Shown here in pieces: positions 347 to 61,127 of a stretch of 64,000 bases of DNA (its first letter is position 1; each line of letters begins with the position of its first letter). A program made the position numbers and the translations under genes. The notes under the pieces are model-generated. The model was not told the DNA's origin and searched no databases. It saw only the letters and a list, made by a program, of their open reading frames with translations. The DNA lies in NCBI RefSeq assembly GCF_056712565.1, contig NZ_CM160072.1, one strand, 5' to 3'.

Positions 347-811
347 ATGGAAAAGAAATTACCCCGCATTAAAGCGCTGCTAACCCCCGGCGAAGTGGCG
401 AAACGCAGCGGTGTGGCGGTATCGGCGCTGCATTTCTATGAAAGCAAAGGGTTGATTACCAGTATCCGTAATAGCGGCAATCAGCGGCGATATAAACGTG
501 ATGTGTTGCGATATGTCGCAATTATCAAAATTGCTCAGCGTATTGGCATTCCGCTCGCAACCATTCGTGAAGCGTTTGGCGTGTTGCCAGAAGGGCATAC
601 GTTAAGTGCGAAAGAGTGGAAACAGCTTTCGTCCCAATGGCGAGAAGAGTTGGATCGGCGCATTCATACCTTAGTGGCGCTGCGTGACGAACTGGATGGA
701 TGTATTGGTTGTGGCTGCCTTTCGCGCAGTGATTGCCCGTTGCGTAACCCGGGCGACCGATTAGGAGAAGAAGGTACCGGCGCACGCTTACTGGAAGATG
801 AACAAAACTAA
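347..811 (+). CDS. soxR: SoxR, MerR-family redox-sensing [2Fe-2S] transcriptional activator
   Basis: 154-aa ORF with N-terminal MerR helix-turn-helix and C-terminal [12 protein letters not shown] cysteine cluster. Confidence 0.95.
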
Positions 812-945
812 AGCGCCACAAGGGCGCTTTAGTTTGTTTTCCGGTCTTTGTCTTTCTCTCTATCCCGCTGGTACACAGGAGGGTTTCCCCCGACGTCAAC
901 ACACCTCATTCGAGCACGTGGTGGAGGTTCCGGTTGGTGTTGATG
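800..945 (-). ncRNA. ryjA: Possible RyjA small RNA, placed by synteny only
   Basis: In K-12 a roughly 140-nt sRNA is annotated antisense and overlapping the soxR 3' end; I cannot verify its sequence from memory, so the coordinates are approximate. Confidence 0.3.
810..840. terminator. Stem-loop directly after the soxR stop codon (AAAGCGCC/GGCGCTTT, loop ACAAG), possible bidirectional terminator
   Basis: 8-bp perfect stem at 810-817/823-830 followed by a T-rich tract on the plus strand. Confidence 0.5.
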
Positions 946-2857: not shown

Positions 2858-4507
2858 ATGGAAATCTTCTTCACCATACTGATAATGACCCTCGTGGTCT
2901 CGCTGTCCGGGGTGGTCACTCGTGTCATGCCCTTTCAGATCCCGCTTCCGCTTATGCAAATCGCCATCGGTGCGCTACTGGCGTGGCCGACGTTTGGTTT
3001 GCATGTGGAGTTTGATCCTGAACTCTTTTTAGTCTTGTTTATCCCGCCGTTGCTGTTCGCTGATGGCTGGAAAACGCCGACCCGTGAATTTCTCGAACAT
3101 GGGCGAGAGATTTTCGGCCTCGCGCTGGCGCTGGTGGTGGTCACCGTGGTCGGCATTGGCTTCCTTATTTACTGGGTGGTGCCGGGCATTCCGCTGATCC
3201 CCGCCTTTGCGCTGGCTGCGGTGCTTTCTCCGACCGATGCTGTAGCGCTCTCCGGGATTGTTGGCGAGGGGCGCATCCCGAAAAAAATCATGGGCATTTT
3301 GCAGGGCGAAGCGTTGATGAATGACGCCTCCGGCCTGGTGTCGTTGAAGTTTGCCGTGGCAGTGGCGATGGGGACAATGATCTTCACCGTCGGCGGTGCG
3401 ACGGTCGAATTTATGAAAGTGGCAATAGGCGGTATTCTCGCCGGTTTTGTGGTGAGCTGGCTGTATGGTCGCTCGCTGCGATTCCTCAGCCGCTGGGGCG
3501 GTGATGAACCCGCGACGCAGATCGTTCTGCTGTTCTTGCTGCCATTCGCTTCTTATCTGATTGCGGAACATATTGGCGTTTCCGGCATCCTCGCTGCGGT
3601 TGCCGCCGGGATGACCATCACCCGCTCCGGTGTGATGCGCCGTGCGCCGCTGGCAATGCGCCTGCGCGCAAACAGCACCTGGGCGATGCTGGAATTTGTC
3701 TTTAACGGCATGGTGTTCCTGCTGTTAGGTCTGCAGTTGCCGGGGATTCTGGAGACGTCGCTGATGGCGGCAGAAATCGACCCTAACGTCGAAATCTGGA
3801 TGCTGTTTACCGATATTATTCTGATATATGCGGCGCTGATGCTGGTCCGTTTCGGCTGGCTGTGGACGATGAAAAAGTTCAGCAACCGCTTCCTGAAGAA
3901 GAAGCCGATGGAGTTTGGTTCGTGGACTACACGAGAAATCCTGATCGCGTCTTTCGCCGGGGTGCGTGGGGCGATCACTCTGGCCGGTGTGCTCTCTATC
4001 CCGCTTCTCTTGCCGGATGGTAACGTCTTCCCTGCGCGCTATGAGTTGGTGTTCCTGGCGGCTGGCGTCATTCTCTTCTCATTGTTTGTCGGCGTGGTGA
4101 TGTTGCCTATTCTGCTACAACACATAGAAGTCGCGGACCATTCGCAACAATTGAAAGAGGAACGTATTGCACGAGCGGCAACGGCAGAAGTGGCGATTGT
4201 GGCGATCCAGAAAATGGAGGAGCGTCTGGCGGCGGATACCGAAGAGAATATCGATAACCAGCTGCTCACAGAGGTTAGTTCTCGCGTCATTGGTAACCTG
4301 CGTCGTCGCGCCGATGGACGTAATGATGTAGAAAGTTCAATCCTGGAAGAGAACCTGGAGCGTCGCTTCCGTCTGGCGGCATTGCGTTCTGAACGTGCTG
4401 AACTGTACCACCTGCGCGCCACGCGGGAGATCAGTAACGAAACGCTGCAAAAATTACTGCACGATCTCGATTTGCTTGAAGCGTTGCTGATTGAGGAAAA
4501 TCAGTAA
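2858..4507 (+). CDS. yjcE: Putative Na+/H+ exchanger, CPA1 family
   Basis: 549-aa membrane ORF with a charged C-terminal cytoplasmic domain; synteny. Confidence 0.85.
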   Translation: MEIFFTILIMTLVVSLSGVVTRVMPFQIPLPLMQIAIGALLAWPTFGLHVEFDPELFLVLFIPPLLFADGWKTPTREFLEHGREIFGLALALVVVTVVGIGFLIYWVVPGIPLIPAFALAAVLSPTDAVALSGIVGEGRIPKKIMGILQGEALMNDASGLVSLKFAVAVAMGTMIFTVGGATVEFMKVAIGGILAGFVVSWLYGRSLRFLSRWGGDEPATQIVLLFLLPFASYLIAEHIGVSGILAAVAAGMTITRSGVMRRAPLAMRLRANSTWAMLEFVFNGMVFLLLGLQLPGILETSLMAAEIDPNVEIWMLFTDIILIYAALMLVRFGWLWTMKKFSNRFLKKKPMEFGSWTTREILIASFAGVRGAITLAGVLSIPLLLPDGNVFPARYELVFLAAGVILFSLFVGVVMLPILLQHIEVADHSQQLKEERIARAATAEVAIVAIQKMEERLAADTEENIDNQLLTEVSSRVIGNLRRRADGRNDVESSILEENLERRFRLAALRSERAELYHLRATREISNETLQKLLHDLDLLEALLIEENQ

Positions 4508-8701: not shown

Positions 8702-8907
8702 TTGCCGAATGTAGGCCGGATAAGGCGTTATACGCCGCATCCGGCAATCAATGCCTGATGCGACGCTGTCGCGTCTTATCAGGCCTACAGCCGTTGCCGA
8801 ATGTAGGCCGGATAAGGCGTTCACGCCGCATCCGGCAACCAGCGCCTGATGCGCCGCTGTCGCGTCTTATCAGGCCTACAAACCGTTACCGACTCGCATC
8901 CGGCAAT
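8702..8907. repeat. BIME: tandem duplication of a 92-bp unit of two REP-like palindromes (about 2.2 copies)
   Basis: Unit starting at 8702 repeats at 8794 with a few substitutions, followed by a partial third copy; contains GCCGGATAAGGCGTT..ACGCCGCATCCGGC and GCCTGATGCG..CGTCTTATCAGGCCTAC. Confidence 0.85.
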
Positions 8908-25313: not shown

Positions 25314-25487
25314 ATGCTTCCCAATCCCTGAAATTACTTTGAGGTTATTAATATGCTATCAGACGGGGTTTCGCTGCATTAATCGCGCCAGAATATCCCG
25401 TTAATAGAACGAGTTAAACGGTCGATGATTTCTCACCTTACCGAAATTTTGTTTATCAAATGTAAAGTATTATTACGTTAGGCCGCG

Positions 25488-25515
25488 ATGAGAATTGAGT
25501 AAAGATAATTCTCAT
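25488..25515. promoter_or_regulatory. Perfect palindrome ATGAGAATT-N10-AATTCTCAT upstream of the ABC operon, candidate operator
   Basis: 9-bp perfect inverted repeat arms about 175 bp upstream of the substrate-binding protein start codon. Confidence 0.3.
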
Positions 25516-25687: not shown

Positions 25688-27835
25688 TTACGCCAGTGCC
25701 GCTTCGCGCAGGCGAGTTTTCAACTTGTTGTACTCGTCAATCACGTACTGCTCGGCGGCGCGCTGATCGGCGATCGGCTCGACGCGCACGGCGCAGTATT
25801 TGTATTCCGGCGTTTTCGTAATCGGGCTTAAGTTTTCGGTCACCAGCTCGTTACAGGCACCAATCCACCACTGGTAGGTCATGTAAATCGCCCCTTTGTT
25901 CGGACGATCGCTGACCTGCGCACGGGTGATAATTTTGCCTTTACGCGAGTGCACCCAAACCAATGCCTCATCTTCAATACCCAGACGTTTGGCGTCTTCG
26001 GTATTGATTTGTGCGTAGCCAGGTTCATCAGCCAGCGCCGCCAGTGCCGCACAGTTACCGGTCATCGAACGGCAAGAGTAGTGACCAACTTCACGCACCG
26101 TTGACAGTACCATCGGGTACTCGTCGGTGAGTTTGTCGATTGGCGCTACCCAGTCGCAGGTGAAGAACTGCGCCAGACCGTTCGGGGTATCAAACTTCTC
26201 TTTAAACAGATAAGAAGTCCCCTGATCGGCATCTGAAGTATCGCGGCAAGGCCACTGAATGAAGCCCAGTTCGCCCATTTTCTCGTAAGTCGCACCGTAG
26301 AAATCCGGGCACAGATGACGCAACTCGTCCCAGATCTCCTGGGTGTTGTTGTAGTGCATCGGATAACCCATACGAGTGGCAATTTCACTGATGATTTGCC
26401 AGTCCGTTTTCAGATCCCACTTCGGCTCAACCGCCTTGAAGAAACGCTGGAAGCCACGGTCAGCCGCAGTAAACACGCCTTCATGCTCGCCCCACGACGT
26501 TGACGGTAAAATGACATCCGCCGCCGACGCGGTTTTGGTCATAAAGATGTCCTGAACGATAACCAGTTCCAGATCTTCAAAGGCTTTACGTACTGCCGAC
26601 AGTTCCGCGTCAGTTTGCAGCGGATCTTCGCCCATAATGTACGCCGCTCTCACTTCACCATGCGCCACGCGGTGCGGCAGCTCGCTGATACGATAACCGG
26701 TATGAGCAGGCAGGCTTTCCACGCCCCAGGCTTTGGCAAATTTCTCGCGGTTAGCCGGATCTTTCACGTACTGATAGCCCGGATACGTATCCGGCAGCGC
26801 GCCCATATCGCAGGCACCCTGCACGTTGTTCTGACCACGAACCGGGTTTACACCCGCATGTGGCTTACCGAGGTTACCGGTCAGCATCGCGAGGCTGGTC
26901 AGAGAACGCACGGTTTCCACGCCCTGATAGAACTGGGTTACCCCCATGCCCCACAGGATGGCGGCGCTTTCCGCCTGGGCATACATCCGCGCCGCCTGAC
27001 GAATCTCACTGGCGCTGACGCCGGTGATATCTTCAACCGACTCCGGCGTGTAGCCTTCAACGATTTTACGATACTCTTCAAAGCCTTCTGTACGGGAAGC
27101 GACGAACGCTTTGTCGTACAGATTTTCTTCAATAATGACATGGCCCATCGCATTCAACAGCGCGATGTTCGAGCCGTTTTTCAATGCAATGTGCATGTCA
27201 GCAATGCGCGCGGTTTCAATTTTACGCGGATCGCAGACGATAATTTTCGCCCCGTTACGTTTAGCGTTAATTACGTGATTCGCCACGATTGGGTGGGAAT
27301 CCGCCGGGTTATACCCGAAAACGAACACTAAATCGGTATTATCAATTTCGTTAATAGCATTGCTCATTGCGCCATTACCGACCGATTGGTGCAGACCTGC
27401 AACCGATGGGCCGTGTCAGACACGAGCGCAGCAGTCAACGTTATTGGTACCAATAACGGCGCGCGCAAATTTTTGCATTACATAGTTGGTTTCGTTACCC
27501 GTACCGCGCGAGGAGCCGGTCGTCTGGATGGCATCCGGACCGTACTTCTCTTTGATGGCGCTCAGGCGCTCGGCAACGTAATTCAGTGCCTCATCCCAGG
27601 AAACAGGTTCGAGTTTGCCGCCACGCTGGCGACGGATCATGGGGGTTTTCAGGCGCGGGGTCAGGATCTGGGTATCGTTAATGAAGTCCCAGCCATAATA
27701 ACCCTTCAGACACAGGGTACCCTGGTTGGTTTTCCCCTGCGCTGCCTCCGCCCGGACGATTTTGCCGTTATCGACGACCAGGTTGATTTTGCAACCTGAT
27801 GCGCAATAGGGGCAAACCGTGACGACTTTTTTCAT
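25688..27835 (-). CDS. fdhF: Formate dehydrogenase H, selenocysteine-containing molybdoenzyme; in-frame TGA (Sec) at 27417-27419
   Basis: The 139-aa and 559-aa ORFs are contiguous in one frame across a single TGA (..DCCARV-U-HGPSVAGLHQ..); N-terminal CPYCASGC Fe-S motif; total 715 aa. Confidence 0.9.
27370..27416 (-). other. fdhF SECIS stem-loop directing selenocysteine insertion at the TGA
   Basis: mRNA immediately 3' of the UGA (CACGGCCCAUCGGUUGCAGGUCUGCACCAAUCGGUCGG) is the hairpin-forming segment known as the fdhF SECIS. Confidence 0.6.
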
Positions 27836-27876
27836 CGGTCTCGCTCCAGTTAATCAAATCACGCATACGCGCTCTC

Positions 27877-27892
27877 GACTACAGTATGCATC
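27877..27892 (-). promoter_or_regulatory. Sigma-54 (-24/-12) promoter TGGCAT-N7-ATGCA for fdhF
   Basis: Minus-strand TGGCATAAAAGATGCA has GG and GC at the canonical spacing, about 45 bp upstream of the fdhF ATG. Confidence 0.55.
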
Positions 27893-27963
27893 TTTTATGC
27901 CACATTTTATTTGGGGTCATTCCCTGATATTACGGGCACTATTTATTCAAAACTCTGACGAAA

Positions 27964-27977
27964 AACAGGCTGTCGTC
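27964..27977. promoter_or_regulatory. Inverted repeat CGTCA-GTTT-TGACG in the fdhF upstream region, candidate activator (FhlA) site
   Basis: Palindrome about 100 bp upstream of the sigma-54 promoter, where the enhancer site is expected. Confidence 0.3.
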
Positions 27978-28032
27978 AGTTTTGACGTGACGAAACGAAA
28001 TACCGCGTGACAGCCATCACGCGGTAGACATT

Positions 28033-29499
28033 TTATTTTTTCTCGACGATGGGAGCCGCCTGATACCCGCCGCCCAGCGATTTCATCAACTGAATGCTTT
28101 GGATCACCCGGCGGCTGTCCAGCATCAGTAATGACATCTCTTCGGCAAGCACTGGCAACCGGGCTTCGGTGGCCTGTAAGCGGCTGGTTAAGCCGCGCTG
28201 ATAGGCGGCCTCGGCTGCGCGCTGGGTGAAGCGCGTTGCTTCTACGCGTTCAGCCTGCATCTCTCGCTCGTCGTTGAGCGTTTGCAGACGTGTGCCGTTG
28301 ACGGCAACGTCACGCACCGCGTTCAGTACTGACTGGTTGTAACGTTCAATCATCATGTTGCTGGCGGCGCGAGTGCCTTCGAGATTGGCATTCAACCGTC
28401 CACCGTCAAACAGCGGCAATTTCAGACCCGGGATGAAGTTGAACTGGCGACTGGTTTTTTTGAATAAGGTATCCAGGTGGATGGAGTCCAGACCGAAAAA
28501 CGCTTTGATATCAAAGCTCGGGTAGAACAGCGCCCGCGCGGAATCCACCTGATCTAATGACGCCTGAACATACCAGCGCATGGCTTGCAGATCCGGGCGT
28601 CTGGCGAGCAACTCATAAGAGAGCGTTGCCGGAATGCCGGTCTGTACTCGTGGTAATGCCACCGGTTTGATCTCCGGCATATCGCTGGCTCCCGCGCCAA
28701 TCAATGCACGCAGAGATTCTCGCGTTTCAGTGATTTGCCCTTTGACGGCAGCAATTTGTTTATCGACCGCCAGAATCTGTGCCCGCGCGCCGTGGAAAGG
28801 CACTTGCGCTTCCAGACCGTGCGCCACTTTACTCTGGTGCGCTTTCACCGCGTAATCAATCACATCGCGAGTTTGTTCTAACAGATCGAGCATCTGATAG
28901 CTGGCCTGCATACTGTAATAAAGCTGCGCTACGCCCGTGGTCAGCGATAGCTCTACTGCTGCGGTTTCTGCCAGCGCGGCATTATGCGCGCCAATGGCGG
29001 CAGCAACCGCTGAGCGATGCACACCCCACAAATCGAGATCCAGTCCGGCAAACAAACCGACTGTGGCTTCCGTATAGTACGGCCCGTCCATACCCAGTGC
29101 TGGCGCATCCATCGCATAAGGGCTTAAAAAGCCGTTCGCCGAGACGCGTTGGCGGTTGAGCATCCCTAACGCTGCGACCTGTAATTGTGAACCGGCATCT
29201 AACAAATCGGCCTGGGACTGCGCTTTTTCTTCCCGCAGTTTCGCTTCGGCGAGGGTGTGTGAACCACTTAGCGTCCGTTGGATCAGCGCATCCAGCTGCG
29301 GGTCATTGAGTTGTTTCCACCACTGCGCCTGCGGCCAGCCGGAGCTGGCAAGATGAATATCATCGGCCAGTTTGATTTGTTCCGGTTTGAGCTGTTGATG
29401 AGGCGCAGAATCCTTACGTACCAGGGCACAGCCGGAAATCAGCGTCGTGCTGCCGAGAATGCTGCACAACAGCAGACGTGAAAGTTGACGATTGATCAT
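28033..29499 (-). CDS. mdtP: Outer-membrane factor lipoprotein of the MdtNOP efflux system
   Basis: 488-aa ORF with lipoprotein signal (LISGC) and OMF-type sequence. Confidence 0.9.
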   Translation of the reverse strand: MINRQLSRLLLCSILGSTTLISGCALVRKDSAPHQQLKPEQIKLADDIHLASSGWPQAQWWKQLNDPQLDALIQRTLSGSHTLAEAKLREEKAQSQADLLDAGSQLQVAALGMLNRQRVSANGFLSPYAMDAPALGMDGPYYTEATVGLFAGLDLDLWGVHRSAVAAAIGAHNAALAETAAVELSLTTGVAQLYYSMQASYQMLDLLEQTRDVIDYAVKAHQSKVAHGLEAQVPFHGARAQILAVDKQIAAVKGQITETRESLRALIGAGASDMPEIKPVALPRVQTGIPATLSYELLARRPDLQAMRWYVQASLDQVDSARALFYPSFDIKAFFGLDSIHLDTLFKKTSRQFNFIPGLKLPLFDGGRLNANLEGTRAASNMMIERYNQSVLNAVRDVAVNGTRLQTLNDEREMQAERVEATRFTQRAAEAAYQRGLTSRLQATEARLPVLAEEMSLLMLDSRRVIQSIQLMKSLGGGYQAAPIVEKK

Positions 29500-31547
29500 T
29501 GCGTGGCTCCTTGTGCCTGTTCCGTGGCGGGCGTTAATGCCGGAGCTGTCCAGTCTGGCAAGCGGGCGAAAAGCTGGCAGACGTGTTGCTCCTGTTTTAA
29601 TAAGGTGGGCAGGATGGCCTGCGAGGCGGGTGTTTCTTCAAGCGTTATTTGAGGAGAACGGCTGAGTGCGGTTGCCAGACCGGCAGCGTATTTCTCCAGG
29701 GCGTCGGCAAACTGACCTGCTCTGTCCGGCTGTAGTGCGTTATCCAGCGCCTGCGCCGAGTTCCAGGTGGCATCCCAGGCGTGAAGAATATCGCGGCCCT
29801 GACGAATAACCGTTTGCGAACGTTCAATCAGTAATGCGCGTTCTTCGCTGTCCAGTTGACGCTCCAGCACCACGCGTTGGCACATCTCTTCACAGGCATT
29901 AAACGCCGCATGCAGACCTATGCGAATTTGCAGATAAGTGCGCAGAGCCGTGACTTCCTGCTGGCGTGGGATCCGCATTACTTTACTCAACATACCCAGC
30001 GCGCCAGCCAGTTTTTGCGGCAGCGTGCGCGCTTCGCTTTCAGGCCAGACAAAGGTGTAAATCACCGCGGACACCACGGTACCAATGATGATACCCAGAG
30101 CGCGATCGCGAATTTCCACCAGGTCGTACACCGGGCCAAAAACGTTTTCGAGCGTGGCGAGCGCGAAGGTGACCACCATCTGTGTGCCGATATAAGAAGA
30201 GCGTTCAGAGCTGGTGGCAATCCATGCGCCCAACAGGAAAATCGGTGCCAGCACAAACAGCAATTCGACAATATTGTCCAGCCAGGGCATGACCAGTAGC
30301 GTGAATAACAGTGCCAGAATCGCGCCGCAAAAGGCCCCACCAAAACGCAGCACCATCTTCTGGTACGACGAACCGACATTTGGATTAGCGACGATCACGC
30401 AGGTCAGCATACAGGTGTGAATGCCTTCCCAGTCCACGCCGCTGTAGAAGGTGTAACAGATCAAACAGGCGAGCAGCGTTTTTACCGCGTAGCGCATATA
30501 GTCTGGATTGGTAAAAGCATCGGCGACCATTGATGGCGGTTTGGCTGCGGGCGTTGGCGGCGTATTCGGGTCCATCTGACCAAGCTGTAACAGCGTCTGG
30601 CAGATATTCTCCAGGTTACATTCCCGTGCCGCCATCGCTTCACTTTCACTGATCCGCCAGTCGCTTTGCCAGCACTGACCTTCGGCAATGGTATGTTGCA
30701 GCTTGTTGATTTCTGAGACTAATTTTTGCCGAAATTCAATAATTGCCTGAGAATCAGCAAAAGAGGTGGGATCGTAGCGATTCAGCGTCGAGTAAATGTA
30801 GGTTACCGTTGCCACGCAGCTTTGCCACCATGCGCTCTGGGTTCGCCAGTTGGCATCATCCGCGAGGCAAAAGACATTGAGTTTTTGCAGCGCCAGCGCC
30901 TCTCTTTCAATCCGCGTTTCGGGTAGCGGTGCGAGGCTGTCCGTCAGGTGGCTAATGGCATCATCAAGCCGATCATTAAGCGCCTGATGCATCTGCGTAA
31001 TGGCACGACTGGGAAACCACAGCACGCCGATTAACGTCATCAGCAAGGTTGGATAGAGGCCAACAACGATACACCACAGCGTTAAGCGCACGACCACTTC
31101 CGGATAGTCGAGCATGGCGGGGAAGGTTTGCCCGTAAATAGCGACAATGGCGACGGCGAAAAAGACCAGTCCCAGCCGATGGGTGCGCATCAAAAACATG
31201 CAGCCCATCAGGATCGGCCCGGCGATGATCAATCGGATCAACGGTTCGCCATATGACCATTTGTAGATCAAAAACAGGCTGCCGATCTCCAGCACCGTGG
31301 CAACCACAAACAAGATCGCGACAAATTTGGTGTAAAACGCGTTCGACTGAATACCGTAAAACAGCACTGCCAGTGATAACGCCACAAAAGGGATCTCAAA
31401 AGTCATCGAGATCAGAATCACCAGCAGGCAGCCTACCCAGAGTTGCATAGTCTGTGGCACGCGCCCTGGTCGCCGCTCGCTTAACTCTTCATGAAAGAAC
31501 GCCAGCAGCCTGACCACCGGTAATGGCAGGGAGTTGAGCGCGCTCAT
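29496..31547 (-). CDS. mdtO: Aromatic-acid-exporter-family membrane efflux protein
   Basis: 683-aa ORF, 4-nt overlap with mdtP. Confidence 0.9.
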   Translation of the reverse strand: MSALNSLPLPVVRLLAFFHEELSERRPGRVPQTMQLWVGCLLVILISMTFEIPFVALSLAVLFYGIQSNAFYTKFVAILFVVATVLEIGSLFLIYKWSYGEPLIRLIIAGPILMGCMFLMRTHRLGLVFFAVAIVAIYGQTFPAMLDYPEVVVRLTLWCIVVGLYPTLLMTLIGVLWFPSRAITQMHQALNDRLDDAISHLTDSLAPLPETRIEREALALQKLNVFCLADDANWRTQSAWWQSCVATVTYIYSTLNRYDPTSFADSQAIIEFRQKLVSEINKLQHTIAEGQCWQSDWRISESEAMAARECNLENICQTLLQLGQMDPNTPPTPAAKPPSMVADAFTNPDYMRYAVKTLLACLICYTFYSGVDWEGIHTCMLTCVIVANPNVGSSYQKMVLRFGGAFCGAILALLFTLLVMPWLDNIVELLFVLAPIFLLGAWIATSSERSSYIGTQMVVTFALATLENVFGPVYDLVEIRDRALGIIIGTVVSAVIYTFVWPESEARTLPQKLAGALGMLSKVMRIPRQQEVTALRTYLQIRIGLHAAFNACEEMCQRVVLERQLDSEERALLIERSQTVIRQGRDILHAWDATWNSAQALDNALQPDRAGQFADALEKYAAGLATALSRSPQITLEETPASQAILPTLLKQEQHVCQLFARLPDWTAPALTPATEQAQGATQ

Positions 31548-50792: not shown

Positions 50793-51635
50793 TCAGATAA
50801 AGTGCTTACGCAACCGTTGAGAGAGGAAATCCAGCAGGCTGACCGTGACGATGATGAGCACCATCAGGGCGCAGGTTTGCTGGAACTGGAAACCGCGAAT
50901 CGCTTCCCACAGCGTGACGCCGATCCCGCTCGCGCCAACCATACCGACGACGGTCGCCGAGCGGACGTTGGATTCGAAGCGATAGAGAGAGTAGGAAATC
51001 AGCAGCGGCATGACCTGCGGTAGTACGCCGTAGAGGATCTCTTCCAGCTTGTTGGCACCGGTAGCGCGAATGCCCTCCACCGGGCCGGGTTCAATCGCTT
51101 CTACCGCTTCGGAAAGCAGTTTGGAAAGTACGCCGGTGGTGTGGATAAACAGCGCCAGCACGCCAGCGAACGGGCCGAGGCCGACGGCGACCACGAACAG
51201 CATGGCGAAGACTATTTCGTTAATGGCGCGGCAGGCGTCCATCAGGCGGCGTACAGGTTGGTAGACCCACCACGGTACCAGGTTTTCAGCGCTCATCAGG
51301 CCGAAGGGGATGGAGAGAACCACCGCCAGCGCGGTGCCCCAGACGGCGATTTGCAGCGTGACGGCCATTTCGGTGAGGTAATCCTGCCACTGGCTGAAAT
51401 CGGGCGGGAAGAAGTCGGCGGCGAACGTCGCCATGTTGCCGCCATCTTTAATCAGCGTAAGCGGTGCCATTTCCGCGCCCTGCCACGAGACGACCAGCAC
51501 GGCGATAACAACGGCCCAGCTCAGAAGCGAGAACCAGCTGCGCTTGGGTGGGGCGATGGTGATGGTTTGCATGTTTGGCTCCGGTCTGTAGGCCGGATAA
51601 GGTGCTTGCACCGCATCCGGCATCAACGTCTGCAC
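50793..51635 (-). CDS. phnE: Phosphonate ABC transporter permease; open reading frame uninterrupted
   Basis: Continuous 280-aa ORF (internal alternative start [10 protein letters not shown] possible) with polytopic topology. Confidence 0.85.
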
Positions 51636-51680
51636 ATTGTCGGATGCGACGCCGGGGCGTCTTATCCGACCTACGATTTA
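51585..51680. repeat. REP element pair between phnE and phnD
   Basis: GTAGGCCGGATAAGG..CATCCGGC and CGGATGCGACG..CGTCTTATCCGACCTAC palindromes. Confidence 0.8.
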
Positions 51681-54147: not shown

Positions 54148-54230
<83 letters not shown>

Positions 54231-59850: not shown

Positions 59851-59900
59851 GCTGAAACGGATGGCCTGATGTGACGCTGTCTAATCAGGTCAATTGAACT

Positions 59901-59917
59901 CTTAAGGTTCACTTAAT
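59901..59917 (+). promoter_or_regulatory. PmrA (BasR) box CTTAAG-GTTCA-CTTAAT upstream of pmrR
   Basis: Direct hexamer repeat with 5-bp spacer matching the YTTAAK-N5-YTTAAK PmrA consensus, 45 bp upstream of the pmrR ATG. Confidence 0.6.
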
Positions 59918-59961
59918 CTCTGACGCGCATACTCTCCTCCAGGTTAACGGAGGAGAGTGCA

Positions 59962-60051
59962 ATGAAAAACCGTGTTTATGAAAGTTTAACTACCGTGTTC
60001 AGCGTGCTGGTGGTCAGCAGCTTTCTTTATATCTGGTTTGCCACGTACTGA
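59962..60051 (+). CDS. pmrR: PmrR, 29-aa membrane peptide (PmrA-activated regulator of LpxT)
   Basis: ORF MKNRVYESLTTVFSVLVVSSFLYIWFATY with one transmembrane helix, preceded by GGAGGAGAG; its 3' end overlaps the basS 3' end on the opposite strand. Confidence 0.6.
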   Translation: MKNRVYESLTTVFSVLVVSSFLYIWFATY

Positions 60052-61127
60052 TCTTTTTTCAGCCGTATCCAGGCCCGCGTGCCGGAAGTCTCTTGCCGGT
60101 TTTGCAGGAAAAACTGCCCGTGATGCAACTGTGTAATGCGGCTGACAATACTTAACCCCAGACCAATCCCGCCATAACGGCTGTCCATTCGTACAAACGC
60201 TTTACTCAACTCCCCGCATTTACTCTCATCAATACCCGGCCCTTCATCTTCAACGGCCATGACCGCTCCGCCATCTTCTTGCAGCTTAATCATAATGTTG
60301 CTGCCTTGTGGGCTATAACGATGGGCGTTTTCTACCAGGTTTCGCAATAACATCCGCAGCAGGGTTGCATCACCCTGAACGGTGATGTCGGCGGCGCTCT
60401 CTGGCAATAGCAGGGTTTGCTGGCGCTGGTCGAGCATGGTACTAAGTTCGTCATACGAGGGGAGAATGACATCTTCCAGCAGTTTTACATGTTGATAATT
60501 ACCGGAAGAAAATGACTGTCCGGCACGCGCCAGTTGCAGCAGCTGGGAGACGCTCTCCATCATCTGATCAAGTCGTGCCACTAACGGTGCTACATCAATG
60601 TGATGCGTTTTCGCCAGCAGTTCCAGATGCAAACGCACCCCCGCCAGTGGTGTTCGCAGTTCGTGCGCGACGTCAGCGGTAAACAACCTTTCGTTATCCA
60701 GCGTGCTGGTCAGGCGACTGACCAGATCGTTTAACGCCGAAACCACCGCATCGATTTCGAGGGTGGCGCTATGAATGGCAATGGGCGTTAAGTTATCGGC
60801 GGTGCGCGCTTCCAGCTCTTTTTGCAGCTCCGCCAGCGGTCGGGTGATGCGGCGTACCGCCTGATAGCAGATAAATAGCGTCAGGCTAACCATAAAGACG
60901 CCGGGGACAATCAGGCTGGCGACCGCCTCGCGGATCTCACGCATGATGTGGCGATCGTTGTTGCGATTGTCGCGTAGCGCCTGCTCAAACAGCTGAATCT
61001 GCTCGGTACTTTCATGCCACAGCCAGAAGACGCTGATCAGCTCAAACACCAACAAAATGGCCCCGATGGTCAATATCAGCCGTTGGCGCAGCGATATTGG
61101 TCGGCGCAGAAAACGCATCAGATTCAA
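60027..61127 (-). CDS. basS: Sensor histidine kinase BasS/PmrB
   Basis: HAMP and HisKA (HELRTPL) motifs; start could be 61127 or the ATG at 61118. Confidence 0.9.
   Translation of the reverse strand: MNLMRFLRRPISLRQRLILTIGAILLVFELISVFWLWHESTEQIQLFEQALRDNRNNDRHIMREIREAVASLIVPGVFMVSLTLFICYQAVRRITRPLAELQKELEARTADNLTPIAIHSATLEIDAVVSALNDLVSRLTSTLDNERLFTADVAHELRTPLAGVRLHLELLAKTHHIDVAPLVARLDQMMESVSQLLQLARAGQSFSSGNYQHVKLLEDVILPSYDELSTMLDQRQQTLLLPESAADITVQGDATLLRMLLRNLVENAHRYSPQGSNIMIKLQEDGGAVMAVEDEGPGIDESKCGELSKAFVRMDSRYGGIGLGLSIVSRITQLHHGQFFLQNRQETSGTRAWIRLKKDQYVANQI

What the first reader, a model, noticed from the sequence alone, without database searches (positions are those of the whole stretch)
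27877..27977. Sigma-54 promoter and upstream palindrome for fdhF
The minus-strand motif TGGCATAAAAGATGCA has the conserved GG and GC dinucleotides at -24/-12 spacing about 45 bp upstream of the fdhF start. About 100 bp further upstream is the inverted repeat CGTCA-GTTT-TGACG, a plausible binding site for the formate-responsive activator FhlA.
Basis: partly seen in the sequence, partly recalled or inferred. Interest (0 to 1): 0.3.

Follow-up and report, generated by a model that had tools for sequence, protein, structure and literature searches.

The report
Known fdhF sigma-54 promoter and enhancer
This is the long-studied control region of the E. coli formate dehydrogenase H gene (fdhF): a sigma-54 promoter plus the upstream site for the formate-sensing activator FhlA.

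Summary
The window is E. coli (100% identical to Nissle 1917 / ATCC 11775 here). The gene starting at 27835 (minus strand) is fdhF. Both motifs exist. TGGCATAAAAGATGCA lies at 27902-27887 (-). The palindrome CGTCA-N4-TGACG lies at 27987-27974, mostly outside the finding's stated end of 27977.

The 215-bp control region differs from K-12 MG1655 at two bases, neither in a motif, so K-12 experiments transfer directly. Published sigma-54 ChIP-seq lists this exact motif, marked as an experimentally confirmed promoter. In vitro genomic SELEX and Salmonella ChIP-chip/microarray data agree.

Across 19 genera, the only 20 invariant upstream columns fall in the -24/-12 elements and in a 21-bp core, TCGWCA-CGTCA-N4-TGWCGA, that contains the palindrome. 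The palindrome sits 85/86 bp from the -24 element, or 76/77 bp (one helical turn less), in 77 of 78 orthologous promoters. The same YGWCA-N4-TGWCG element occurs upstream of three other FhlA-controlled units in K-12 (hydN, hyfA, and the hycA-hycB spacer).

The palindrome is only part of a cluster of five YGWCA units from about -136 to -80.

Novelty: already known. Interest: low.

The parts
27887..27902 (-). Sigma-54 (-24/-12) promoter of fdhF, TGGCATAAAAGATGCA. GG is at 27901/27900 and GC at 27889/27888.
   Evidence: Sequence. It is the only pattern match in the window and ranks 2nd of about 128,000 positions by PWM. TGG.A and TGCAT are invariant in 19 genera, and the motif is present in 78 of 81 orthologous upstream regions. 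The identical motif is the ChIP-seq site OS41 in K-12.
27876..27876 (-). Predicted transcription start (a G), which puts GC at -13/-12 and GG at -25/-24.
   Evidence: Inferred with the convention of PMC4591121: start 19 bp downstream of the centre of the 17-mer motif, distance to the gene 41 bp. Coordinates computed. Not measured here.
27836..27875 (-). 5' untranslated leader (41 nt counting the start base), with Shine-Dalgarno GGAG at 27847-27844.
   Evidence: Sequence. Inference from the predicted start site.
27833..27835 (-). fdhF start codon ATG.
   Evidence: ORF list and RefSeq annotation of the identical sequence in Nissle 1917.
27974..27987 (-).
   Evidence: Unique in the window. Arms are invariant or nearly so and the spacer is variable in 19 genera. 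Present in 77 of 78 orthologous promoters, at 85/86 or 76/77 bp from the -24 T. The same element type occurs at K-12 hydN, hyfA and the hycA-hycB spacer.
27973..27993 (-). Conserved 21-bp enhancer core TCGTCA-CGTCA-AAAC-TGACGA: two tandem direct YGWCA units, an A/T-rich N4, then one inverted unit. The outer arms TCGTCA and TGACGA also form a 6-bp inverted repeat with a 9-bp gap.
   Evidence: It holds 11 of the 20 invariant columns of alignment A2 (27991, 89, 88, 86, 84, 83, 78, 77, 75, 74, 73). Conservation profile over 78 unique orthologous sequences.
27955..27962 (-). Enhancer unit 5, TTCGTCAG, at about -84 to -80. In most genera it is followed by GGTTTTGACC, a possible second and weaker site.
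   Evidence: Conserved in 16-18 of 19 genera and at 90% or more across 78 sequences. Anchored display.
28007..28012 (-). Enhancer unit 1, TGTCAC, at about -136 to -131. In E. coli it lies inside the 3' arm of the mdtP terminator hairpin.
   Evidence: GTCAC is conserved in 15-18 of 19 genera although the flanking sequence is not.
27905..27935 (-). Conserved spacer blocks between enhancer and promoter (CGTAATATCAGG and ATGACCCCAAATAAAA). Probably the loop region; role not established.
   Evidence: Partial conservation. Weak IHF-like match TATCAGGGAATGA at 27929-27917 with 2 mismatches. A 10-bp gap removes the first block in some genera.
28001..28026 (-). Terminator-like hairpin after mdtP (stop codon 28035-28033). 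It marks the upstream boundary of the fdhF control region.
   Evidence: Terminator scan: 11-bp stem with 6 GC pairs, followed by TTTCGTTTCG.

Best explanation
This is the native control region of fdhF, which encodes formate dehydrogenase H, the selenoprotein of formate hydrogenlyase.

Proposed mechanism:
1. RNA polymerase carrying sigma-54 binds the -24/-12 promoter at 27902-27887 as a closed complex that cannot open on its own.
2. The enhancer-binding protein FhlA binds a cluster of YGWCA pentamers about 80-136 bp upstream of the start.
3. Intracellular formate activates FhlA.
4. The intervening DNA loops so that FhlA's AAA+ domain touches sigma-54.
5. ATP hydrolysis opens the promoter, and transcription starts near 27876, giving a 41-nt leader.

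Shown here: the motifs, their exact identity with K-12, their phylogenetic footprint, the phased spacing, and the recurrence of the palindrome type at other FhlA-controlled promoters.
Taken from the literature: sigma-54 occupancy, rpoN and fhlA dependence, and formate sensing.
Inferred: the exact start base, which pentamers FhlA contacts, and the looping step.
For: - Identity of the locus: 100% match to E. coli genomes annotated mdtP | fdhF. SECIS_2 lies just after the in-frame UGA.
- Transfer from K-12: only 2 SNPs in 215 bp, outside all elements.
- Published sigma-54 binding at this very motif: ChIP-seq site OS41, flagged as confirmed in EcoCyc; genomic SELEX with RpoN holoenzyme; Salmonella ChIP-chip and 29-fold sigma-54-dependent expression, with FhlA named as activator.
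- No sigma-70-like promoter in 27700-28150.
- Promoter conservation: GG/GC kept in 78 of 81 orthologous upstream regions while the spacer bases vary.
- Footprint: all 20 invariant columns of a 19-genus alignment (61% mean identity) lie in the promoter or the 21-bp core.
- Spacing: the palindrome is present in 77 of 78 promoters at 85/86 or 76/77 bp from the -24 element.
- Unit density: the region has the highest density of YGWCA units in the whole 64-kb window.
- Regulon comparison in K-12: CGTCACTAGTGTCG upstream of hydN, CGACACGGGTGTCG upstream of hyfA, and TGTCATTTTTGACG in the hycA-hycB spacer.
Against: - The published 16-bp FhlA consensus CATTTCGTACGAAATG (Leonhartsberger 2000, as quoted in PMC4987338) matches the region at best 9 of 16.
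- The 14-bp FhlA matrix printed in PMC7658346 scores the palindrome only 8.1 of 17.1 bits, and dozens of sites elsewhere in the window score higher.
- The primary footprinting and deletion papers (Birkmann & Bock 1989; Schlensog et al. 1994; Leonhartsberger et al. 2000) are not in the held library. The match between my conserved core and the FhlA-protected bases therefore rests on my memory of a UAS at about -110, not on a reading.
- The start site is predicted, not measured here.
- As bare patterns, each motif is expected about 0.1-1 times per window by chance.
Confidence: 0.95

Rival explanations
1. The 14-bp palindrome CGTCA-N4-TGACG is by itself the complete FhlA site, bound by a single dimer. 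The neighbouring repeats would be irrelevant.
For: It is the most symmetric element in the region. It is unique in the window. The same 5-4-5 geometry occurs at hydN and hyfA and in the hycA-hycB spacer.
Against: - Conservation extends beyond it. The extra unit TCGWCA immediately 5' (G27991, C27989, A27988 invariant) and the A at 27973 are as conserved as the palindrome arms.
- Two further units, at 27962-27955 and 28012-28007, are conserved in most genera.
- Activators of this class work as higher oligomers and usually use more than one site (review PMC7175178).
Confidence: 0.15
2. The palindrome belongs to something other than FhlA control: either part of the mdtP terminator, or an operator for a CRP/FNR-type dimer, which has the same 5-4-5 geometry.
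For: It lies only 46 bp downstream of the mdtP stop codon. FNR sites share the geometry (TTGAT-N4-ATCAA, from general knowledge).
Against: - The terminator-like hairpin is a separate element at 28026-28001.
- CGTCA matches TTGAT at 0 of 5 positions (direct reading of the sequence).
- The palindrome stays at a fixed distance from the sigma-54 promoter in genera where the sequence further upstream is unrelated, so the upstream neighbour differs.
- The same element recurs at other FhlA-controlled promoters.
Confidence: 0.03
3. The -24/-12 match is a chance or non-productive sigma-54 binding site, and fdhF is transcribed from another promoter.
For: The bare pattern is expected about once per 64 kb. 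Other sites in the window score similarly, for example 29575-29590 and 25375-25390. Many sigma-54 sites in E. coli are intragenic and of unknown use (PMC4591121).
Against: - The site is intergenic, correctly oriented, and 41 nt before the ATG.
- It is invariant at the key positions in 19 genera.
- No sigma-70-like promoter was found nearby.
- It is recorded as an experimentally confirmed promoter.
- fdhF expression is sigma-54-dependent in Salmonella.
Confidence: 0.02

Closest known systems
E. coli K-12 fdhF promoter (fdhFp) and its FhlA upstream activating sequence (Birkmann et al. 1987; Birkmann & Bock 1989; Bonocora et al. 2015, site OS41)
   Same: It is the same locus. Identity is 213 of 215 bases, with all promoter and enhancer elements identical. 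The sigma-54 motif string is the one printed in PMC4591121.
   Different: Only two strain-level SNPs: one in the mdtP terminator stem and one at about -32. In this B2-type strain an accessory ABC transporter operon follows fdhF, which K-12 lacks.
FhlA enhancers of the hyc/hyp, hydN-hypF and hyf operons of E. coli K-12
   Same: All lie upstream of sigma-54 promoters listed in PMC4591121. All are clusters of YGWCA/TGWCR pentamers. A 5-4-5 inverted repeat of the same type is found at hydN, at hyfA and in the hycA-hycB spacer.
   Different: The number, orientation and spacing of the pentamers differ. The hycA-hypA spacer has mostly direct repeats with 3-5 bp gaps and no exact 5-4-5 palindrome. The tandem-direct-plus-inverted 21-bp core appears specific to fdhF.
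Salmonella Typhimurium fdhF (STM4285) sigma-54 promoter
   Same: It is the orthologous promoter, TGGCATAAAACATGCATA, with sigma-54 binding and 29-fold sigma-54-dependent expression. The enhancer core in the Salmonella enterica locus L012 is TCGACACGTCAAAACTGACGA, at the same 85-bp distance.
   Different: One spacer base differs in the promoter (G to C) and one W position differs in unit 2.
NtrC-dependent glnAp2, the paradigm of an enhancer-dependent sigma-54 promoter
   Same: Same logic: a closed complex at -24/-12, activator sites about 100-140 bp upstream, DNA looping, and ATP-driven opening (general knowledge; PMC3844500 background).
   Different: The activator, signal and site sequence differ. 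NtrC is activated by phosphorylation. FhlA is activated by formate binding to its GAF-containing N-terminal domain (PMC11291172).

Membership tests
Sigma-54 (RpoN) -24/-12 promoter | GG and GC doublets exactly one helical turn apart, in the context TGGCAC-N5-TTGCW | tested here: met
   TGGCAT-AAAAG-ATGCA at 27902-27887. Scores 13.99 of 20.82 bits with the Barrios matrix, rank 2 in the window.
Sigma-54 (RpoN) -24/-12 promoter | Intergenic, oriented toward a gene, with a plausible leader length | tested here: met
   Lies in the 197-bp mdtP-fdhF spacer on the same strand as fdhF. The predicted start is 41 nt before the ATG.
Sigma-54 (RpoN) -24/-12 promoter | Selective conservation of the -24 and -12 bases, with freedom in the spacer | tested here: met
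   T, G, G, A and T, G, C, A, T are invariant in 19 genera, while spacer positions 27895, 27892 and 27891 vary. The motif is present in 78 of 81 loci.
Sigma-54 (RpoN) -24/-12 promoter | Physical occupancy by sigma-54 holoenzyme, and rpoN-dependent transcription | not testable with these tools
   Published for the identical K-12 sequence: ChIP-seq OS41 and genomic SELEX. Published for the Salmonella orthologue. Identity of window and K-12 was checked.
FhlA upstream activating sequence (formate regulon enhancer) | Located roughly 70-150 bp upstream of a sigma-54 promoter, at a constrained distance | tested here: met
   The core lies at -117 to -97 and the whole cluster at -136 to -80. Distance to the -24 T is 85/86 bp in 69 loci and 76/77 bp in 8 loci.
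FhlA upstream activating sequence (formate regulon enhancer) | Shares a sequence element with the enhancers of other FhlA-dependent operons | tested here: met
   YGWCA-N4-TGWCG occurs with 0 mismatches at hydN and hyfA, and with 1 mismatch to the strict CGWCA form in the hycA-hycB spacer. The relaxed pattern is expected 0.21 times per 64 kb.
FhlA upstream activating sequence (formate regulon enhancer) | Match to the published 16-bp consensus CATTTCGTACGAAATG | tested here: not met
   The best match is 9 of 16, at 27992-27977 and at 27965-27950. The consensus is also non-discriminating: 184 sites in the window have 6 or fewer mismatches. I could not read the source paper to see how the consensus was aligned.
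FhlA upstream activating sequence (formate regulon enhancer) | Match to the 14-bp FhlA matrix TGWC-N6-GWCA (PMC7658346, Table 2) | tested here: inconclusive
   The palindrome is the best hit in the fdhF upstream region and agrees with the matrix's preferred bases at about 12 of 14 positions by my own reading of Table 2. It scores only 8.1 of 17.1 bits, and many unrelated sites in the window score higher.
FhlA upstream activating sequence (formate regulon enhancer) | FhlA binding (footprint or gel shift), and loss of formate induction when the site is deleted | not testable with these tools
   Reported for K-12 by Birkmann & Bock 1989, Schlensog et al. 1994 and Leonhartsberger et al. 2000, which I cite from memory and from secondary citation. 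These papers are not in the held library.

The most novel reading that the evidence does not exclude
The evolutionarily constrained unit of the fdhF enhancer may not be the published 16-bp palindromic consensus. It may instead be a YGWCA pentamer arranged as a 21-bp core: two tandem direct units, an A/T-rich N4, then one inverted unit. Across at least 19 enterobacterial genera this core sits at a helically phased distance from the -24 element, 85/86 bp or exactly one turn less. If correct, this would refine how FhlA oligomers read DNA and could guide the design of formate biosensors. It may already be implicit in the 2000 footprinting paper, which I could not read.
Probability: 0.4. Interest if true: 0.2.

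Novelty: already known. Interest (0 to 1): 0.08.

Why it matters
It adds little new. The fdhF promoter was one of the first sigma-54 promoters recognised outside nitrogen control, and it is already used as a formate-responsive part in biosensors (PMC6540204). The value of this check is confirmation. A reader working from raw sequence located a real, experimentally established regulatory region and named the right sigma factor and activator. The comparative footprint gives a compact, tool-based map of which bases matter: 20 invariant positions in 19 genera, and enhancer-promoter spacing that changes only by one helical turn. That map could help anyone engineering the promoter.

Tried and rejected
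1. Published FhlA 14-bp matrix (PMC7658346). Scoring the region with it puts the palindrome first locally, but the matrix is non-discriminating across the window. I did not use it as evidence.
2. Published 16-mer consensus. The best match is only 9 of 16, so it was rejected as a membership criterion. It may reflect a different alignment register, derived from the hyc/hyp sites (TGTCATTTCGACA).
3. Sigma-70 promoter scan of 27700-28150 found none, so a housekeeping promoter is not a rival.
4. Palindrome as part of the mdtP terminator. Rejected: the hairpin is a separate element at 28026-28001.
5. FNR/CRP-type operator. Rejected: half-site identity is 0 of 5.
6. IHF site in the loop region. Only 2-mismatch matches were found; left open.
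7. Primary literature. PubMed 10848985, PMC176951, PMC180993 and PMC11575713 are not held. Full-text searches for the palindrome string returned only unrelated primer lists. Keyword searches found no paper that gives the coordinates of the fdhF UAS.
8. A genome-wide count of the YGWCA-N4-TGWCG element in K-12 was not possible.

Full report
**What is at the coordinates.** On the minus strand, an ORF starts at ATG 27835 and reads MKKVVTVCPYCASGC... It stops at an in-frame TGA after 139 codons and continues in frame to 25688. A 701-bp stretch around the finding is 100% identical to E. coli Nissle 1917, ATCC 11775 and other B2-type genomes. It is present in 5,419 of 5,426 complete E. coli genomes, annotated as mdtP followed by fdhF, 'formate dehydrogenase H subunit alpha, selenocysteine-containing'. 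Rfam's SECIS_2 model hits 27369-27423 (-) at 87 bits, just after the UGA.

**The observation.**
- TGGCATAAAAGATGCA is at 27902-27887 (-), with GG at 27901/27900 and GC at 27889/27888.
- It is the only match in the window to TGGCAYN6TGCW, but such a pattern is expected 0.95 times per window by chance.
- With the 186-promoter sigma-54 matrix printed in PMC7658346, it ranks second among about 128,000 positions.
- The palindrome CGTCA-AAAC-TGACG is at 27987-27974, with 0.10 expected by chance.
- Most of the palindrome lies outside the finding's stated end (27977).
- The distances in the finding are approximate. The motif's 3' end is 52 bp from the ATG and the predicted start 41 bp. The palindrome centre is 86 bp upstream of the promoter centre and about 105 bp upstream of the predicted start.

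**It is the known promoter.**
- The 215 bp from the mdtP stop codon to the first fdhF codons differ from K-12 MG1655 at two positions, neither in a motif.
- Bonocora et al. [quoted passage not shown] The predicted start is 41 bp from the gene, and the site is flagged 'C', meaning experimentally confirmed in EcoCyc.
- Shimada et al. 2021 (PMC8743547) recovered the fdhF/mdtP spacer with reconstituted RpoN holoenzyme in vitro.
- In Salmonella, the orthologous TGGCATAAAACATGCATA is bound by sigma-54. fdhF is 29-fold sigma-54-dependent, with FhlA named as its activator.
- The original demonstration is Birkmann, Sawers & Bock 1987, cited there.
- A simple scan finds no sigma-70-type promoter in 27700-28150.

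**Independent comparative test.** I collected 80 loci encoding close FdhF relatives from one genome per species.
- A -24/-12 motif with GG and GC lies 51-84 bp before the ATG in 78 of 81 sequences. The bases between the two elements vary (AAAAGA, AGAAGC, GGTTTC, GCTTCA...).
- Anchoring the sequences on the promoter shows a second conserved block about 85 bp upstream.
- In an alignment of one sequence from each of 19 genera (A2, 61% mean column identity), there are exactly 20 invariant columns. Nine are in TGG.A...TGCAT. Eleven are in 27991-27973, and none lies elsewhere.
- The probability of that confinement by chance is about 4e-15.
The other three vary only in limited ways: C27987 is C or T, T27985 is T in 18 of 19, and A27976 is A or T. 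All four spacer positions vary. This is the usual signature of a protein-binding inverted repeat.

**Anatomy of the enhancer.** The conserved core is longer than the palindrome. It reads TCGWCA-CGTCA-N4-TGWCGA (27993-27973): two tandem direct pentamers of the form YGWCA, an A/T-rich 4-bp spacer, and one inverted pentamer.
- Atlantibacter (TGACA-TGACA-CTTT-TGTCG) and Arsenophonus (TGTCA-TGTCA-TTTA-TGTCG) keep this plan with different W and Y choices.
- Two more units are conserved in most genera: TTCGTCAG at 27962-27955, and TGTCAC at 28012-28007. In E. coli the latter lies inside the 3' arm of the mdtP terminator hairpin.
- Relative to the predicted start, the five units lie at -136/-132, -116/-112, -111/-107, -102/-98 (inverted) and -84/-80.
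- This stretch has the highest density of YGWCA/TGWCR pentamers in the whole window.
- The palindrome occurs in 77 of 78 promoter-bearing orthologues. Its distance from the T of TGGCA is 85 bp (62 loci), 86 (7), 76 (7) or 77 (1).
- The shorter class differs by one helical turn and corresponds to a 10-bp gap in the spacer region. This fits an activator that must face the promoter from one side of the helix. PMC11291172, citing Leonhartsberger 2000, describes FhlA's helix-turn-helix domain as binding one side of the DNA.

**Link to FhlA.** I fetched the other sigma-54 promoters of the formate regulon from K-12.
- The same 5-4-5 element is upstream of hydN (CGTCA-CTAG-TGTCG) and upstream of hyfA (CGACA-CGGG-TGTCG).
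- With T for the first C, it is also in the hycA-hycB spacer (TGTCA-TTTT-TGACG), which is 12 of 14 identical to the fdhF palindrome read on the other strand.
- The hycA-hypA spacer has the same pentamers in other arrangements (TTTCGTCG, TGTCGA, TGTCATTTCGACATCATCGACA).
- The relaxed pattern is expected only 0.21 times per 64 kb, so finding it in three more short regulatory regions of one regulon is not chance.

**Two published descriptors fit poorly.**
- The 16-mer CATTTCGTACGAAATG matches at best 9 of 16.
- The 14-bp matrix of PMC7658346 gives the palindrome 8.1 of 17.1 bits, below many unrelated sites.
- I could not read the primary footprinting papers. My recollection that the fdhF UAS was placed at about -110 by deletion analysis (Birkmann & Bock 1989) therefore remains a recollection.

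**Mechanism.** The established scheme for enhancer-dependent sigma-54 promoters is summarised in PMC3844500 and PMC7175178.
- Sigma-54 holoenzyme sits at 27902-27887 in a closed complex.
- FhlA binds the pentamer cluster. It is activated by millimolar cytoplasmic formate through its N-terminal domain (PMC11291172 and PMC11841067).
- The DNA between about -80 and -25 loops.
- ATP hydrolysis by FhlA opens the promoter.
- According to the literature, oxygen and nitrate act indirectly by draining formate.
- The loop region carries partly conserved blocks (CGTAAnATCAGG and ATACCCACAATAAAA) whose role I did not resolve. There is only a weak IHF-like match.

**Rivals.** Three alternatives were considered, and each is contradicted by the conservation, spacing and regulon comparisons above:
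- The palindrome alone is the whole site.
- The palindrome belongs to the mdtP terminator or to another regulator.
- The -24/-12 match is non-productive.

**Verdict.** The feature is already known, and interest is low. The only modest addition is the comparative map of the enhancer: a 21-bp three-unit core, five units in all, and helically phased spacing.

Noticed in passing
window 27369-27423 (-): Rfam SECIS_2 hit (87 bits, gathering score 70) immediately 3' of the in-frame UGA of fdhF (codon 140, 27418-27416). This is the selenocysteine insertion element of fdhF.
   Followed up: yes
window 25375-25390 (-): A second sigma-54-like motif, TGGCGCGATTAATGCA (13.0 bits, 4th best in the window), lies 62 nt upstream of the ATG (25313) of a five-gene ABC importer. 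The importer sits between fdhF and yjcO and is absent from K-12. Its binding protein is NikA/DppA/GsiB-like but scores far below every curated cut-off. The operon is next to fdhF in 1,043 of 5,426 complete E. coli genomes. The E. albertii locus keeps the GG/GC doublets with a different spacer (L002:5445). No activator gene is visible nearby. This may be chance.
   Followed up: partly
window 29575-29590 (+): The best sigma-54 matrix hit in the whole window, TGGCAGACGTGTTGCT (14.6 bits), lies inside mdtO on the antisense strand. mdtO is not mentioned in the main text of the K-12 ChIP-seq paper (supplements not searched).
   Followed up: partly
window 25488-25515 (-): An 8-bp inverted repeat, ATGAGAAT-N12-ATTCTCAT, lies in the spacer between the fdhF terminator and the ABC transporter gene. 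It may be an operator; no regulator was identified.
   Followed up: no
window 27905-27935 (-): Partly conserved blocks sit between enhancer and promoter (CGTAATATCAGG and ATGACCCCAAATAAAA). In Pluralibacter-like loci (L009, L029, L031, L038, L049, L072) a gap of about 10 bp removes the first block and shortens the enhancer-promoter distance by one helical turn.
   Followed up: partly
L074, L078, L081 (upstream of position 3001): Three orthologous fdhF loci (Entomohabitans, Leclercia sp., Enterobacter sp. BIGb0383) lack an intact -24/-12 motif and/or an intact palindrome. This suggests loss or rewiring of FhlA control in those lineages.
   Followed up: no
window 28001-28026 (-): The mdtP terminator-like hairpin in E. 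coli has absorbed the conserved upstream TGTCAC unit of the fdhF enhancer into its 3' arm. One of the two SNPs relative to K-12 is in this stem.
   Followed up: partly
window 804-944 (-), 59893-60058 (+), 8714-8876 (+), 51591-51671 (+), 54148-54225 (-): Other Rfam hits in the window: the sraL sRNA, STnc630, and four naRNA4 (REP-type) elements. None is related to the finding.
   Followed up: no
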